DNA of 64,000 nt from assembly GCA_964016885.1 (NCBI GenBank), contig OZ024766.1, forward strand, positions 12,772,001 through 12,836,000. The letters are read 5' to 3'. Positions within the stretch are counted from its first letter, which is position 1. Each line of letters opens with the position of its first letter. The notes beneath the pieces were generated by a model. That model was not told the origin of the DNA and ran no database searches. It worked only from the letters and a program-made list of their open reading frames with translations. The position numbers were made by a program, and so were the translations under genes. This document shows, piece after piece, positions 24,220 to 64,000 of this stretch. This DNA is from Eledone cirrhosa. Its lineage: Eukaryota.

Positions 24220-24808
24220 AACTTGCTCCGATGGATGTGTAATAGTATTATGTATGAATGGCAAAGTGTAAATGAACTGAGAGAGAAACTGGACATATGA
24301 GTGGTCAGATGCAGTGTAGAGATGAAGAGACTGTGATGCTATGATGCATATTAAGGATGATAACTGCATAAAAAGGTGCAGGGTACTCAAAGTTGATGTA
24401 AGCTATGGAAGAAGGAGACCTAGATGCAGTGTAGAGATGAAGAGACTGCAATGCTATGATTCATATTAAGGATGATAACTGCATAAAAAGGTGCAGGGTA
24501 CTCAAAGTTGATGTAAGCTATGCAAGAAGGAGACCTAGATGCAGTGTAGAGATGAAGAGACTGCGATGCTATGATTCATATTAAGGATGATAACTGCATA
24601 AAAAGGTGCAGGGTACTCAAAGTTGATGTAAGCTATGCGAGAAGGAGACCTAGATGCAGTGTAGAGATGAAGAGACTGCGATGCTATGATTCATATTAAG
24701 GATGATAACTGCATAAAAAGGTGCAGGGTACTCAAAGTTGATGTAAGCTATGGAAGAAGGAGACCTACGAAAGCTTGGGATGAGGTGATAAAAGCTGACC
24801 TCACACAT
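24220..24808 (+). mobile_element. Decayed RTE LINE 3' fragment containing a tandem amplification
   Basis: ttgctccgatggatgtgt (LLRWMC), aatgaactgagagagaaactg (NELREKL) and agacctacgaaagcttgggatgag (RP.K.WDE) are collinear with the RTE at 32320-34090. Confidence 0.85.
24307..24766 (+). repeat. 115-bp x4 tandem repeat derived from the RTE C-terminal coding region
   Basis: AGATGCAGTGTAGAG starts at 24307, 24422, 24537 and 24652. Confidence 0.95.
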
Positions 24809-24886
24809 TATTCTATGTACTAAACATGCACCTTTGATAAGTTGTAGTGCACCTGAGCACTGTACACAATAATTTCATTATTATTA
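24809..24886 (+). mobile_element. Severely 5'-truncated copy of the CR1/L2-like 3' tail
   Basis: Near-identical to 22700-22780 (attctatgtacta.acatgcacctttgat.agttgtagtgcac.tgagcactgtacacaat...(att)n). Confidence 0.75.
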
Positions 24887-25278
24887 GTTTTAAGAGTGGT
24901 TTGGCAGTATCGGTAGTGAGTCAGACACCATGCTTTGCAGCATAGAGTTATTGCCCTTTACGTTCTGCGTTCAAATCTGCCGAGGTTAACTTTGCCTTTC
25001 ATCCTTACGGGGTCGATAAAATAAAGTACCAGTAATGTACTGGGGTGATTGCTGGCCTTGTGCCTAAAATAGAAACAATTATTAGTTTTAAGAGTGGTTT
25101 GGCAGTATCGGTAGTGAGTCAGACACCATGCTTTGCAGCATAGAGTTATTGCCCTTTATGTTCTGAGTTTAAATCTGCCGAGGTTAACTTTGCCTTTCAT
25201 CCTTATAGGGTCGAGAAAGTAAAGTACCAGTAATGTACTGTGGTAATTGCTGGCCTTGTGCCGAAAGTAGAATCATCA
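24883..25278 (+). mobile_element. Tandem dimer of SINE family 1 (198-bp period)
   Basis: ATTAGTTTTAAGAGTGGTTTGGCAGTATCGG at 24883 and 25081. A box TGGCAGTATCGG; B box GTTCAAATC (GTTTAAATC in copy 2). Confidence 0.88.
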
Positions 25279-59500: not shown

Positions 59501-62500
59501 TCCTAGGCACTATTGCTATGTTAACTACAGGAGCTAATATCCTGGGGACTATTGCTATGTTAACTACAGGAGCTAATATCCTGGGGACTATTGCAATGTT
59601 AACTAAAGGAGCTAATATCCTGGGGACTATTGCTATGTTAACTACAGGAGCTAATATCCTGGGGACTATTGCTATGTTAACTAAAGGAGCTAATATCCTG
59701 GGGACTATTGCTATGTTAACTACAGGAGCTAATATCTTAGGGACTATTGCTATGTTAACTAAAGGAGCTAATATCCTGGGGACTATTGCTATGTTAACTA
59801 CAGGAGCTAATATCCTGGGGTCTATTGCTATGTTAACTAAAGGAGCTAATATCCTGGGTACTATTGCTATGTTAACTACAGTAGCTAATATCCTGGGGTC
59901 TATTGCTATGTTAACTACAGGAGCTAATATCCTAGGGACTATCGCTATGTTAACTAAATGAGCTAATATCCTGGGGACTATTGCTATGTTAACTAAAGGA
60001 GCTAATATCCTGGGGTCTATTGCTATGTTAACTAAAGTAGCTAATATCCTAGGGACTATTGCTATGTTAACTACAGGAGCTAATATCCTGGGGACTATTG
60101 CTATGTTAACTAAAGGAGCTAATATCCTAGGGACTATTGCTATGTTAACTACAGGAGCTAATATCCTGGGGTCTATTGCTATGTTAACTACAGGAGCTAA
60201 TATCCTAGGGACTATTGCTATGTTAACTAAAGGAGCTAATATCCTGGGGACTATTGCTATGTTAACTACAGGAGCTAATATCCTGGGGTCTATTGCTATG
60301 TTAACTACAGGAGCTAATATCCTAGGGACTATTGCTATGTTAAATAAAGGAGCTAATATCCTGCGGACTATTGCTATGTTAACTACAGGAGCTAATATCC
60401 TGGGGTCTATTGCTATGTTAACTAAAGGAGCTAATATCCTGGGGACTATTGCTATGTTAACTACAGGAGCTAATATCCTGGGGTCTATTGCTATGTTAAC
60501 TAAAGGAGCTAATAACCTAGTGTCTATTGCTATGTTAACTAAAGGAGCTAATATCCTGGGGACTATTGCTATGTTAACTACAGGAGCTAATATCCTGGGG
60601 ACTATTGCTATGTTAACTACAGGAGCTAATATCCTGGGGACTATTGCTATGTTAACTAAAGGAGCTAATATCCTGGGGACTATTGCTATGTTAACTAAAG
60701 GAGCTAATATCCTGGGGACTATTGCTATGTTAACTAAAGGAGCTAATATCCTGGGGTCTATTGCTATGTTAACTAAAGGAGCTAATATCCTGGGGACTAT
60801 TGCTATGTTAACTAAAGGAGCTAATATCCTAGGGACTATTGCTATGTTAACTACAGGAGCTAATATCCTGGGGACTATTGCTATGTTAACTAAAGGAGCT
60901 AATATCCTGGGGACTATTGTTATGTTAACTAAAGGAGCTAATATCCTGGGGTCTATTGCTATGTTAACTAAAGGAGCTAATATCCTGGGGTCTATTGCTA
61001 TGTTAACTAAAGGAGCTAATATCCTGGGGACTATTGCTATGTTAACTAAAGGAGCTAATATCCTGGGGACTATTGCTATGTTAACTAAAGGAGCTAATAT
61101 CCTGGGGACTATTGCTATGTTAACTAAAGGAGCTAATATCCTGGGGACTATTGCTATGTTAACTAAAGGAGCTAATATCCTGGGGGCTATTGCTATGTTA
61201 ACTACAGGAGCTTATATCCTGGGGACTATTGCTATGTTAACTAAAGGAGCTAATATCCTGGGGACTATTGCTATGTTAACTAAAGGAGCTAATATCCTGG
61301 GGACTATTGCTATGTTAACTAAAGGAGCTGATATCCTCGGGACTATTGCTATGTTAACTAAAGGAGCTAATATCCTGGGGTCTATTGCTATGTTAACTAC
61401 AGGAGCTAATATCCTGGGGACTATTGCTGTGTTAACTAAAGGAGCTAATATCCTGGGGACTATTGCTATGTTAACTACAGGAGCTAATATCCTGGGGACT
61501 ATTGCTATGTTAACTAAAGGAGCTAATATCCTGGGGACTATTGCTATGTTAACTAAAGGAGCTAATATCCTGGGGACTATTGCTATGTTAACTACAGGAG
61601 CTAATATCCTGGGGACTATTGCTATGTTAACTACAGGAGCTAATATCCTAGGGACTATTGCTATGTTAACTAAAGGAGCTAACATCCTGGGGACTATTGC
61701 TATGTTAACTAAAGGAGCTAATATCCTGGGGACTATTGCTATGTTAACTAAAGGAGCTAATATCCTGGGGACTATTGCTATGTTAACTAAACGAGCTAAT
61801 ATCCTGGGGACTATTGCTATGTTAACTACAGGAGCTAATATCCTAGGGACTATTGCTATGTTAACTAAAGGAGCTAATATCCTAGGGACTATTGCTATGT
61901 TAACTAAAGGAGCTAATATCCTGGGGACTATTGCTATGTTAACTAAGAGAGCTAATATCCTAGGGACTATTGCTATGTTAACTAAAGGAGCTAATATCCC
62001 TGGGACTATTGCTATGTTAACTACAGGAGCTAATATCCTAGGGACTATTGCTATGTTAACTAAAAGAGCTAATATCCTGGGTACTATTGCTATGTTAACT
62101 AAAGGAGCTAATATCCTAGGGACTATTGCTATGTTAACTAAAGGAGCTAATATCCTAGGGACTATTGCTATGTTAACTACAGGAGCTAATATCCTAGCGA
62201 CTATTGCTATGTTAACTAAAGGAGCTAATATCCTGGGGTCTATTGCTATGTTAACTAAAGGAGCTAATATCCTGGGGACTATTGCTATGTTAACTAAAGG
62301 AGCTAATATCCTGGGGACTATTGCTATGTTAACTAAAGGAGCTAATATCCTGGGGACTATTGCTCTGTTAACTACAGGAGCTAATATCCTAGGGACTATT
62401 GCTATGTTAACTACAGGAGCTAATATCCTGGGGACTATTGCTATGTTAACTACAGGAGCTAATATCCTGGGGACTATTGCTATGTTAACTACAGGAGCTA

Positions 62501-64000
62501 ATATCCTGGGGACTATTGCTATGTTAACTACAGGAGCTAATATCCTGGGGACTATTGCTATGTTAACTACCGGAGCTAATATCCTACGGACTATTGCTAT
62601 GTTAACTACAGGAGCTAATATCCTGGGGACTATTGCTATGTTAACTAAAGGAGTTAATATCCTAGGGACTATTGCTATGTTAACTAAAGGAGCTAATATC
62701 CTGGGGACTATTGCTATGTTAACTAAAGGAGCTAATATCCTGGGGACTATTGCTATGTTAACTACAGGAGTTAATATCCTGGGGACTATTGCTATGTTAA
62801 CTAAAGGAGCTAATATCCTATGGACTATTGCTATGTTAACTACAGGAGCTAATATCCTGGGGACTATTGCTATGTTAACTAAAGGAGCTAATATCCTGGG
62901 GACTATTGCTATGTTAACTAAAGGAGCTAATATCCTAGGGACTATTGCTATGTTAACTACGGGAGCTAATATCCTGGGGACTATTGCTATGTTAACTACA
63001 GGAGCTAATATCCTAGGGACTATTGCTATGTTAACTACAGGAGCTAATATCCTAGGGACTATTGCTATGTTAACTACAGGAGCTAATATCCTGGGGACTA
63101 TTGCTATGTTAACTACAGGAGCTAATGTCCTAGGGACTATTGCTATGTTAACTAAAGGAGCTTATATCCTGGGGACTATTGCTATCTTAACTACAGGAGC
63201 TAATATCCTGGGGACTATTGCTATGTTAACTAAAGGAGCTAATATCCTGGGGACTATTGCTATGTTAACTAAAGGAGCTAATATCCTGGGGACTATTGCT
63301 ATGTTAACTAAAGGAGCTAATATCCTGGGGGCTATTGCTATGTTAACTACAGGAGCTTATATCCTGGGGACTATTGCTATGTTAACTAAAGGAGCTAATA
63401 TCCTGGGGACTATTGCTATGTTAACTAAAGGAGCTAATATCCTGGGGACTATTGCTATGTTAACTAAAGGAGCTGATATCCTCGGGACTATTGCTATGTT
63501 AACTAAAGGAGCTAATATCCTGGGGTCTATTGCTATGTTAACTACAGGAGCTAATATCCTGGGGACTATTGCTGTGTTAACTAAAGGAGCTAATATCCTG
63601 GGGTCTATTGCTATGTTAACTAAAGGAGCTAATATCCTGGGGACTATTGCTATGTTAACTACAGGAGCTAATATCCTGGGGACTATTGCTATGTTAACTA
63701 CCAGAGCTAATATCCTAGGGACTATTGCTATGTTAACTACAGGAGCTAATATCCTGGGGACTATTGCTATGTTAACTAAAGGAGTTAATATCCTAGGGAC
63801 TATTGCTATGTTAACTAAAGGAGCTAATATCCTGGGGACTATTGCTATGTTAACTAAAGGAGCTAATATCCTGGGGACTATTGCTATGTTAACTACAGGA
63901 GTTAATATCCTGGGGACTATTGCTATGTTAACTAAAGGAGCTAATATCCTATGGACTATTGCTATGTTAACTACAGGAGCTAATATCCTGGGGACTATTG
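44521..64000. repeat. 39-bp satellite, ~500 units, GAGCTAATATCCT(G/A)GGG(A/T)CTATTGCTATGTTAACTA(A/C)AG; runs off the window end
   Basis: Continuous array. The 13-codon period gives the MLTKGANILGTIA pseudo-ORFs. Higher-order duplications of 584, 2027, 2730 and 2145 bp. Confidence 0.99.

What the first reader, a model, noticed from the sequence alone, without database searches (positions are those of the whole stretch)
24307..64000. A local 'satellite nursery': at least six arrays at different growth stages derive from retroelement segments
Seen: RTE-derived 115 bp x4 (24307), 80 bp x20 (32370) and 39 bp x ~500 (44521); SINE-motif-derived ~48 bp x ~12 (26285), x ~10 (34610) and 49 bp x ~30 (38828); plus a whole-SINE dimer (24883). 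In the 115, 80 and 49-bp cases the host element resumes in register after the array. TE-derived satellites are known individually, but a graded series at this density around a ZNF cluster suggests a regional tandem-amplification process. The same process may also expand the 84-bp zinc-finger units (inference).
Basis: partly seen in the sequence, partly recalled or inferred. Interest (0 to 1): 0.75.

Follow-up and report, generated by a model that had tools for sequence, protein, structure and literature searches.

The report
Minisatellites spreading inside retrotransposon copies
These tandem repeats are real but typical of this whole small chromosome, where such repeats are about eight times denser than on the giant chromosomes, and one 80-base repeat inside dead jumping genes likely passes from copy to copy during DNA repair.

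Summary
The arrays are real, but the window is not a local nursery. Its density (8 arrays in 24 kb) equals the mean of its 22-Mb chromosome C27 (3.5 per 10 kb, against 0.46 on the four giant chromosomes). Zinc-finger windows are no richer than others. The arrays have mixed origins. The 115-bp and 39-bp arrays are unique to this locus. The degenerate 48-bp chain at 26285 came ready-made in an old LINE 3' UTR. The 49-bp and 80-bp arrays recur at many loci with the same junction.

The 80-bp array is the interesting case. It is absent from the LINE consensus (1,596 single against 19 arrayed copies of one haplotype, 13 of the 19 on C27). None of its 7,152 junctions lies on C1-C4 (54% of the genome). 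Arrays mix units of different subfamilies, and one four-SNP unit occurs only in two arrays 1.4 Mb apart. Best reading: recombination-linked birth and growth after insertion, with units likely passed between paralogous copies by ectopic conversion. Closest known: squamate SINE-derived satellites and Drosophila Rsp-like spread. The scan reported similar patterns on other DNA of this genome. No function is shown.

The parts
23329..24036 (+). C2H2 zinc-finger exon; fingers 2-6 recently duplicated (88-98% DNA identity)
24032..27687 (+). Segment behind the zinc-finger exon, segmentally duplicated on C27 (paralogues at 2.89, 4.40-4.42 and 12.52-12.59 Mb); several paralogues grew their own different arrays
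24307..24767 (+). 115 bp x4.0 array inside a LINE ORF C-terminal fragment (about 24220-24800); host resumes in register; junction unique in the genome; single-copy in the five closest paralogous segments; 1-bp microhomology only
24880..25275 (+). Head-to-tail dimer of a 198-bp SINE; copies 93.9% alike against at most 90.7% to 91 family copies, so a duplication rather than a double insertion (inferred)
26285..26840 (+). Degenerate chain of about 12 48-bp units in the 3' UTR of an old LINE (about 25290-26990); multi-unit also in copies on C2 and C28, so carried ready-made
30721..34215 (+). 5'-truncated RTE-like LINE: RT plus PHD-like ORF remnant 31047-32459, short 3' UTR, (GAT)n tail
32366..33973 (+). 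80 bp x20.1 array in the LINE ORF C-terminus; same junction as at many other loci; mosaic of two family haplotypes; units 10-12 repeated as 18-20
34228..34570 (+). SINE with A and B boxes and the same 3' end as the LINE; holds the 49-bp segment once (unexpanded paralogue of the 38828 host)
   Evidence: sequence
34654..35103 (+). 48 bp x9.5 array; young expansion of one unit of the 48-bp LINE 3'-UTR motif family (about 75% to other such arrays); host inferred from degenerate units on both sides
36587..38218 (+). C2H2 zinc-finger exon with older fingers (17 compared, 67-93% DNA identity)
38828..40306 (-). 49 bp x30.2 array inside a SINE (about 38720-40450), bounded by a 9-bp direct repeat; host resumes in register; junction recurs genome-wide (4,285 exact matches)
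43251..43862 (.).
44521..64000 (.). 39-bp satellite, 1,082 units and about 42 kb including 22,748 bases beyond the window; found only at this locus; abuts an old LINE fragment, weak similarity to the LINE ORF

Best explanation
These are neutral-looking minisatellites inside dead LINE and SINE copies on a chromosome where tandem arrays are dense throughout, likely because DNA breaks and recombination are frequent there, and the 80-bp LINE array likely spreads between paralogous copies by ectopic gene conversion. Steps: (1) SHOWN: elements insert mostly with one copy of the segment. (2) SHOWN: first duplications often sit at short direct repeats (9 bp for the 49-mer, 7 bp for the 112-mer), sometimes at almost none (115-mer, 80-mer). 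(3) SHOWN: arrays are far more frequent and longer on small chromosomes, above all C27. (4) INFERRED: the cause is a high rate of break repair and recombination per megabase. (5) SHOWN: arrays grow in place by block duplication. (6) SHOWN: 80-bp arrays share and mix units across loci. (7) INFERRED: a broken single-unit LINE copy repaired on a nearby array-bearing paralogue re-anneals out of register and gains the junction, so the array behaves like a contagious allele of the family. The junction may have been born in the older subfamily, whose entry has a better microhomology. One chain (26285) is an exception that was retrotransposed ready-made.
For: Not consensus: 29 of 29 flank-selected paralogues have one unit, and 1,596 single against 19 arrayed copies share one exact 102-base haplotype. 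Place: 13 of those 19 are on C27 (0.75% of the assembly). 0 of 7,152 junctions lie on C1-C4 and 69 on C1-C11 (72.6% of the assembly), while the exit motif is common on C1 (100 in the first 74.6 Mb of 6,098 in all). Control: the 49-bp junction with its 9-bp repeat does arise on C1-C4 (41 of 4,285 matches, 26 loci, mostly one junction each). Independent hosts: array-bearing copies have different 3' flanks and 5' ends and form no clade (14 changes against 15.6 shuffled). Exchange: 20 of 43 arrays mix unit haplotypes; two inverted arrays about 400 bp apart hold each other's unit type (L006); a four-SNP unit occurs 5 times in the genome, in two arrays 1.43 Mb apart on C20 with different entries and flanks. 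In-place origin: the 115-bp segment is single in the paralogous segments, several of which grew other arrays; the 39-bp array has a perfect 3.7-kb tandem block. Gradient: arrays per 10 kb fall with chromosome length (rho -0.67 over 27 chromosomes, -0.57 without C25-C27). LINE copies on C25-C27 are short with or without an array, as expected where ectopic recombination purges long copies (own knowledge).
Against: No recombination map was available, so step 4 rests on chromosome size, on short LINE copies and on a few subterminal clusters (C7, C10). The ends of C1-C4 are not enriched (0.25 arrays per 10 kb in 8 windows), which a simple subtelomere model does not predict. The host tree is nearly a star (1 starred branch of 46), so a single array-bearing source is not formally rejected by it. 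Exchange between existing arrays is shown, but conversion of a single-unit copy into an array is not. Only one private multi-SNP unit was tested genome-wide; two other shared variant pairs link arrays on different chromosomes. In systematic C27 windows 2 of 11 matches to the 80-bp segment were arrayed (both young copies), a small sample. C27 is about twice as dense as other small chromosomes (C20-C24 1.7, C26 1.5), which size alone may not explain. The seven TE segments used for the per-copy rate were chosen from a C27-heavy sample; the second batch of 20 windows repeated the rate (23 of 81).
Confidence: 0.62

Rival explanations
1. Every 80-bp array is born independently at a duplication hotspot of the LINE sequence on break-prone chromosomes, and conversion only mixes units afterwards.
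For: Fixed junctions at direct repeats recur in the 49-, 112- and 61-bp families. The 49-bp junction appears sporadically on C1-C4. Locus-unique arrays with about 1 bp of microhomology exist (115-mer). The 80-bp entry has an imperfect longer likeness to the exit.
Against: Exact microhomology is only 3-4 bp. The junction was never found on C1-C4 among roughly 2,170 copies (extrapolated), yet it is the one 'goes back' joint among the 15 best-supported joints in reads. No array has a private variant fixed in all units (0 of 26 arrays not selected for a perfect first unit), whereas 19 of 25 single copies carry one; this comparison is weakened because most arrays were picked by similarity.
Confidence: 0.22
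2. The 80-bp arrays were made at insertion, either copied from array-bearing source elements or by the reverse transcriptase jumping back 80 bases on one or several RNAs.
For: It explains the identical junction, the mixed units and the lack of fixed private variants. Array-bearing copies keep a median of only 154 bases upstream against at least 1,550 in matched C1 singles. The old 48-bp chain shows that ready-made arrays do occur in these LINEs.
Against: The family inserts abundantly on C1-C4 but no junction lies there, while other arrays persist there (48 bp x20 on C2). Hosts span several entry haplotypes and two subfamilies. Unselected single copies on C25-C27 are also short (7 of 8 under 300 bases). 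Neighbour-specific unit sharing needs exchange after insertion.
Confidence: 0.08
3. The zinc-finger cluster itself (its chromatin or its segmental-duplication turnover) drives tandem amplification, of the finger units and of the neighbouring TEs alike.
For: C27 has the most zinc-finger windows (7 of 41, against 2 of 107 elsewhere) and about twice the array density of other small chromosomes. Paralogous zinc-finger 3' segments each grew arrays. Young finger duplications exist.
Against: No excess at the 10-kb scale (2.9 against 3.6, p=0.50), and the size gradient holds without C25-C27. 80-bp arrays also lie on C7, C9, C10, C12, C20, C21 and C24.
Confidence: 0.08

Closest known systems
SINE-derived satellites (sSat1-3) of squamates, Vassetzky et al. 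2023, PMC10702118 (abstract, passages and Discussion read)
   Same: Tandem arrays of part of a retroelement still attached to host sequence, from a few to about 1,000 units, recurring at many loci, concentrated in particular chromosome regions while the parent element is spread evenly; whole-SINE tandem dimers also noted.
   Different: Here LINE coding and 3'-UTR segments serve as well as SINEs, both host ends are usually kept, and enrichment covers whole small chromosomes rather than only subtelomeres. The term 'gene conversion' does not occur in that paper's main text; here unit exchange between loci is seen directly.
Rsp-like and 1.688 euchromatic satellites of the Drosophila X, Sproul et al. 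2020, PMC7403614 (abstract and section 12 read)
   Same: Chromosome-restricted spread of short arrays into existing repeats, with interlocus gene conversion or circular-DNA reintegration proposed, and local growth by unequal exchange.
   Different: There a foreign satellite enters another satellite through microhomology. Here the recipients are thousands of dispersed LINE copies fully homologous to the unit.
TE-derived human minisatellites (Ahmed and Liang 2012, PMC3389668, passages) and the Haber and Louis short-flanking-repeat model (as summarised in PMC6947457, passages)
   Same: Units bounded by 5-10-bp direct repeats (49- and 112-bp families), hotspots within the element consensus, some arrays spread ready-made by transposition.
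   Different: That human survey saw no obvious genomic hotspots, whereas here there is an eightfold chromosome contrast, and for the 80-mer an absence from 54% of the genome. The 80- and 115-bp junctions lack a 5-10-bp exact repeat.
Subtelomeric VNTR enrichment in humans, PMC7608644 (passages)
   Same: Tandem-repeat density and variability linked by the authors to high-recombination regions.
   Different: Here the gradient follows chromosome size, and the ends of the four giant chromosomes were not enriched in 8 windows.

Membership tests
TE-derived minisatellite or satellite | Head-to-tail array whose unit is homologous to part of a dispersed element | tested here: met
   115-, 80-, 49-, 48- and 198-bp units match dispersed copies.
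TE-derived minisatellite or satellite | Same feature for the 39-bp and 32-bp arrays | tested here: inconclusive
   39-mer: 1 of 7 alignments at p=0.005, 2 more at p<0.05, all at the expected place; no resumption. 32-mer: no match found.
TE-derived minisatellite or satellite | Array absent from the element consensus (arose after or apart from transposition) | tested here: met
   80-mer: 1,596 single against 19 arrayed. 115-mer: unique junction. 49-mer: most SINE copies single. Not met for the 26285 chain.
Haber-Louis type minisatellite | Unit bounded by a 5-10-bp direct repeat | tested here: met
   49-bp array, 9-bp repeat.
Haber-Louis type minisatellite | Same feature for the 80- and 115-bp arrays | tested here: not met
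   Exact overlap 3-4 bp and 1 bp.
Squamate-type sSat | Subtelomeric preference | tested here: inconclusive
   C7 and C10 arrays are near ends, but C27 arrays span 3.5-19.7 Mb and C1-C4 ends are poor in arrays.
Mobile VNTR carried by a retroelement (SVA-like; label recalled) | Array present in the consensus and distributed like the element | tested here: not met
   80-mer and 49-mer are not distributed like their hosts. Met only for the old 48-bp chain.
RTE-clade LINE (host) | Non-LTR reverse transcriptase ORF | tested here: met
   RVT_1 E=7e-28 and 3e-30; nearest atlas clusters are RT plus PHD proteins, commonest in Mollusca.
RTE-clade LINE (host) | Short 3' UTR ending in a short tandem tail shared with a partner SINE | tested here: met
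   (GAT)n tail and shared 3' end at 34160-34215 and 34515-34570; that this marks RTE is recalled.
RTE-clade LINE (host) | RT phylogeny groups it with named RTE elements | not tested
   No named reference elements were at hand; the RTE label rests on recalled motifs and on RTE being reported in octopus (PMC9115989, passages).
Centromeric or structural satellite | Same repeat on many chromosomes, CENP-A binding | tested here: not met
   All 791 genome-wide matches of the 39-bp motif lie in this one array. CENP-A binding not testable.

The most novel reading that the evidence does not exclude
The 80-bp duplication is a protein-free homing allele of a LINE family. Born once or a few times in an older subfamily, it spreads by break repair into single-unit paralogues within reach, has taken a large share of the young copies on one small zinc-finger chromosome and none on the four giant chromosomes, and so marks where ectopic gene conversion operates in this genome.
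Probability: 0.4. Interest if true: 0.65.

Novelty: new variant of a known kind. Interest (0 to 1): 0.45.

Why it matters
How a first tandem duplication arises and reaches many loci is an open step in satellite-DNA theory. This genome gives a natural control: thousands of near-identical LINE copies on giant chromosomes with no 80-bp junction, against a small chromosome where the junction is common and units move between loci. That makes birth, growth and spread separately testable. It also offers a sequence-only proxy for recombination in an animal for which I had no map. It suggests that the largest zinc-finger cluster sampled sits on the most duplication-prone chromosome, which could speed finger turnover (inferred). 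No function of the arrays is shown, and the window itself is ordinary for its chromosome.

Tried and rejected
Assembly artefact: rejected for the 80-bp junction. It could not be tested for copy numbers; laying contigs and reduced-representation reads on 24000-25400 gave no piece across the 115-bp junctions (uninformative). The long perfect blocks in the 39-bp (3.7 kb) and 54-bp (4.1 kb) arrays may be recent duplications or assembly errors; undecided.

Array as part of the LINE consensus: suggested, rejected. Segmental duplication as the source of the dispersed 80-bp arrays: rejected by different 3' flanks and 5' ends. Short 5' ends as a sign of reverse-transcriptase stutter: weakened because single copies on C25-C27 are short too. 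Host tree: too poorly resolved to count origins. Fixed-private-variant test: confounded for the 17 rows from loci picked for a perfect first unit, which I left out of that count. Unit-by-unit register test for the 26285 chain: only 4 window units were parsed, so only the multi-unit state of other copies is claimed. The first per-copy count split single arrays into several and was replaced. C25's mean of 4.1 is inflated by two windows of one compound repeat (16 and 13 rows); without them it is 1.8.

Runs of organisms A and B showed no 80-bp joint but covered the segment thinly, so this is no evidence. A Pfam scan found nothing for the short ORFs at 28635 and 25467. Nine paper searches listed no study of TE-internal arrays or their chromosome gradient in cephalopods. 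The library lacks most subscription journals, and I read no supplements, where such a result could stand.
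Full report
Setting. The window is G000:C27:12,772,001-12,836,000 in a 3.0-Gb assembly. C27 is 22.4 Mb; C1-C4 are 379-443 Mb and hold 54% of the assembly. Long C2H2 exons, RT plus PHD LINEs whose nearest atlas clusters are mostly molluscan and SINEs point to an octopus-like cephalopod (inferred). C2H2 clusters on a few, partly small chromosomes are reported for octopuses (PMC9795677 and PMC9068888, passages). The label RTE rests on recalled motifs and the shared LINE/SINE tail; no RT tree was built.

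Observation. TRF confirms the 115x4, 198x2, 80x20, 48x9.5, 49x30 and 39x500 arrays and adds 32x19 and a 57-bp array. The host resumes in register after the 115-, 80- and 49-bp arrays. The 39-bp array continues 22,748 bases past the window. It has 1,082 units of 138 types, 2.2-3.6% from its majority unit, and all 791 genome-wide matches of its motif lie in it. Its LINE origin is weak: it abuts an old LINE fragment and resembles the ORF a short way further on (p=0.005 in 1 of 7 alignments, 0.035-0.26 in the others), and no LINE follows it. The chain at 26285 is a decayed multi-unit 3' UTR of an older LINE, seen at 67-73% identity in copies on C1, C2, C3, C5 and C28, with several units parsed in those on C2 and C28.

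Local or regional? I scored 148 fixed-grid 10-kb windows for non-simple arrays (period at least 25, at least 85% matches, finger repeats removed). The grid was not random and included chosen terminal windows. Arrays per window: C1-C4 0.46 (11 in 24), C5-C7 and C28 0.85 (13 windows), C8-C19 1.0 (23), C20-C24 1.72 (25), C26 1.55 (11), C25 4.09 (11; 1.8 without two compound-repeat windows) and C27 3.51 (144 in 41). C27 against C1-C4 gives p=7e-9. Over 27 chromosomes the mean falls with length (rho -0.67, p=1e-4; -0.57, p=0.004 without C25-C27). The window's 8 arrays in 20.3-44.5 kb match the 8.5 expected from the C27 mean. Within C27, 7 zinc-finger windows average 2.9 and 34 others 3.6 (p=0.50). 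Per copy of seven TE segments, 44 of 181 are arrayed on C27, 6 of 43 on C25, 4 of 32 on C26, 5 of 58 on C20-C24, 3 of 72 on C8-C19, 1 of 37 on C5-C7 and C28, and 1 of 48 on C1-C4. The segments were chosen from a C27-heavy sample, but the later 20 C27 windows repeated the rate (23 of 81). TE load alone therefore does not explain the excess. In the first 21 C27 windows 37 of 67 arrays had dispersed relatives in the sample and 30 had none, so the process is not confined to TEs. The ends of C1-C4 are not enriched.

In-place origin. The segment 24032-27687 has paralogues at 2.89, 4.40-4.42 and 12.52-12.59 Mb of C27, several beside finger exons. In the five closest paralogues the 115-bp segment is single, and its junction is found only here. 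Several paralogues grew different arrays (91x3.6, 89x2.6, 92x2.2, 86x3.3 and a 98%-pure 48x8.6 from one unit of the old chain). The SINE dimer's copies are closer to each other (93.9%) than to any of 91 family copies (at most 90.7%). The window's 80-bp array repeats units 10-12 as 18-20.

The 80-bp array. A query that includes the junction returns arrays of 2-15 units with the same junction at 19 of 19 other loci fetched, of 40 scored. A flank-only query returns single units at 29 of 29. For one exact 102-base haplotype there are 1,596 single and 19 arrayed copies, 13 of them spread over 3.5-19.7 Mb of C27. Of 7,152 exact junctions none lies on C1-C4 and 69 on C1-C11. The listing is ordered from C1, as the exit-motif control shows (6,098 matches, 100 in the first 74.6 Mb of C1, about 2,170 on C1-C4 by extrapolation). 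The 49-bp junction, which has a 9-bp direct repeat, does occur on C1-C4 (41 of 4,285 matches at 26 loci; 97 on C1-C11). A good microhomology thus gives sporadic births everywhere, but the 80-bp junction with 3-4 bp does not. The junction stands in contigs and raw reads of public runs.

Array-bearing hosts are separate insertions with different 3' flanks, 5' ends and entry haplotypes, and they are not clustered on a poorly resolved tree (14 changes against 15.6 shuffled). Of 43 arrays, 20 mix unit haplotypes that exist in single copies; one of the 43 rows proved to be a different, roughly 126-bp array. In L006 two inverted arrays of different subfamilies about 400 bp apart each hold the other's unit type. 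A four-SNP unit occurs five times in the genome, in two arrays 1.43 Mb apart on C20. Two other shared variant pairs link C10 with C27 and C7 with C9. No array has a fixed private variant (0 of 26 after leaving out 17 rows from loci selected for a perfect first unit), while 19 of 25 singles carry one; selection by similarity weakens this. Array-bearing copies are strongly 5'-truncated (median 154 bases against at least 1,550 in 20 matched C1 singles, p=8e-7), but so are 7 of 8 unselected singles on C25-C27. In systematic C27 windows the two young copies found were both arrayed and the older ones single.

Mechanism. Shown: single-unit insertion, position-dependent duplication, growth in place, exchange of units between loci. 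Inferred: high break and recombination rates on small chromosomes as the cause, and gain of the junction by single-unit copies through repair on an arrayed paralogue or reintegration of a circle. I give this 0.62, independent births with later mixing 0.22, origin at insertion 0.08 and a zinc-finger-specific driver 0.08. The finger units may share the regional tendency (fingers 2-6 at 23329 are 88-98% identical; the gene at 36587 shows 67-93%), but nothing here ties them to the same events.

Comparison. It works like squamate SINE-derived satellites (PMC10702118; abstract, passages, Discussion) and like Rsp-like spread on the Drosophila X (PMC7403614; abstract, section 12). The 49-mer fits the short-flanking-repeat model (PMC6947457, passages). 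TE-derived tandem repeats are common in humans, with no genomic hotspot seen in that survey (PMC3389668, passages; review PMC9659126, passages), and VNTRs are enriched in human subtelomeres (PMC7608644, passages). A recent octopus repeat annotation (PMC13282606, parts 1-2 of 3) maps TE hotspots but does not analyse TE-internal arrays in the parts read. Nine searches listed no cephalopod study of this; supplements were not read. Earlier unreviewed notes of this scan describe the same pattern on other pieces of this genome. I read them after forming my reading; they are not independent support, and one gave me the squamate paper.

Verdict. Real arrays, an ordinary window on an array-rich chromosome, and a known kind of phenomenon. 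What is new in degree is the all-or-none chromosome contrast and the direct trace of unit exchange in a LINE-internal array. New variant of a known kind; interest 0.45.

Noticed in passing
window 1-20127 and L057-L060, L223: A 52-54-bp CA-rich satellite continues at least 40 kb left of the window and also fills C27:12,712,001-12,722,000, so it is probably about 80 kb long; it has perfect blocks of up to 4.1 kb at a 5,650-base lag.
   Followed up: partly
window 27690-29460; L150, L164: An AT-rich element with a short Cys-rich ORF (28632-29006, minus; no Pfam hit) and a T-rich 57-bp array; by eye it holds pieces of the 54-bp unit that fills whole 10-kb windows on C20 and C23. Possibly a DNA transposon that seeded that satellite (guess).
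   Followed up: no
window 24650-25475: Two copies of the same LINE stretch (84% alike) flank the SINE dimer. The first resembles the paralogues at 2.89 and 4.4 Mb, the second is 97% identical to the paralogue at 12.59 Mb, so the segment looks like a recombinant of two paralogue types.
   Followed up: partly
window 25464-25935: A short LINE fragment with a (TAGA)n tail between an 11-bp direct repeat, absent from the paralogous segments.
   Followed up: partly
L053-L054 (C27:12,856,001-12,876,000): Right of the 39-bp array lie further zinc-finger exons with 168- and 252-bp higher-order periods (up to 89% matches), each followed by 72/69- and 100-bp arrays that were duplicated with the gene.
   Followed up: no
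L002-L020, L085, L129, L143 and others on C25-C27: LINE copies on the smallest chromosomes are much shorter than on C1-C4, and many 5' ends abut TA-rich microsatellites.
   Followed up: partly
L009, L019, L076, L083, L091, L098, L107, L108, L140, L159: A 72-bp array family at 10 loci inside a non-coding element; 8 of 15 copies on C27 are arrayed against 0 of 3 on C1-C4.
   Followed up: partly
L137 and L138 (C25 27.0 and 28.8 Mb): A compound repeat of alternating 46-bp arrays and 27-bp doublets fills both windows near the end of C25.
   Followed up: no
L211 minus strand: A roughly 126-bp array that includes the same LINE motif as the 80-bp unit but has a different junction.
   Followed up: no
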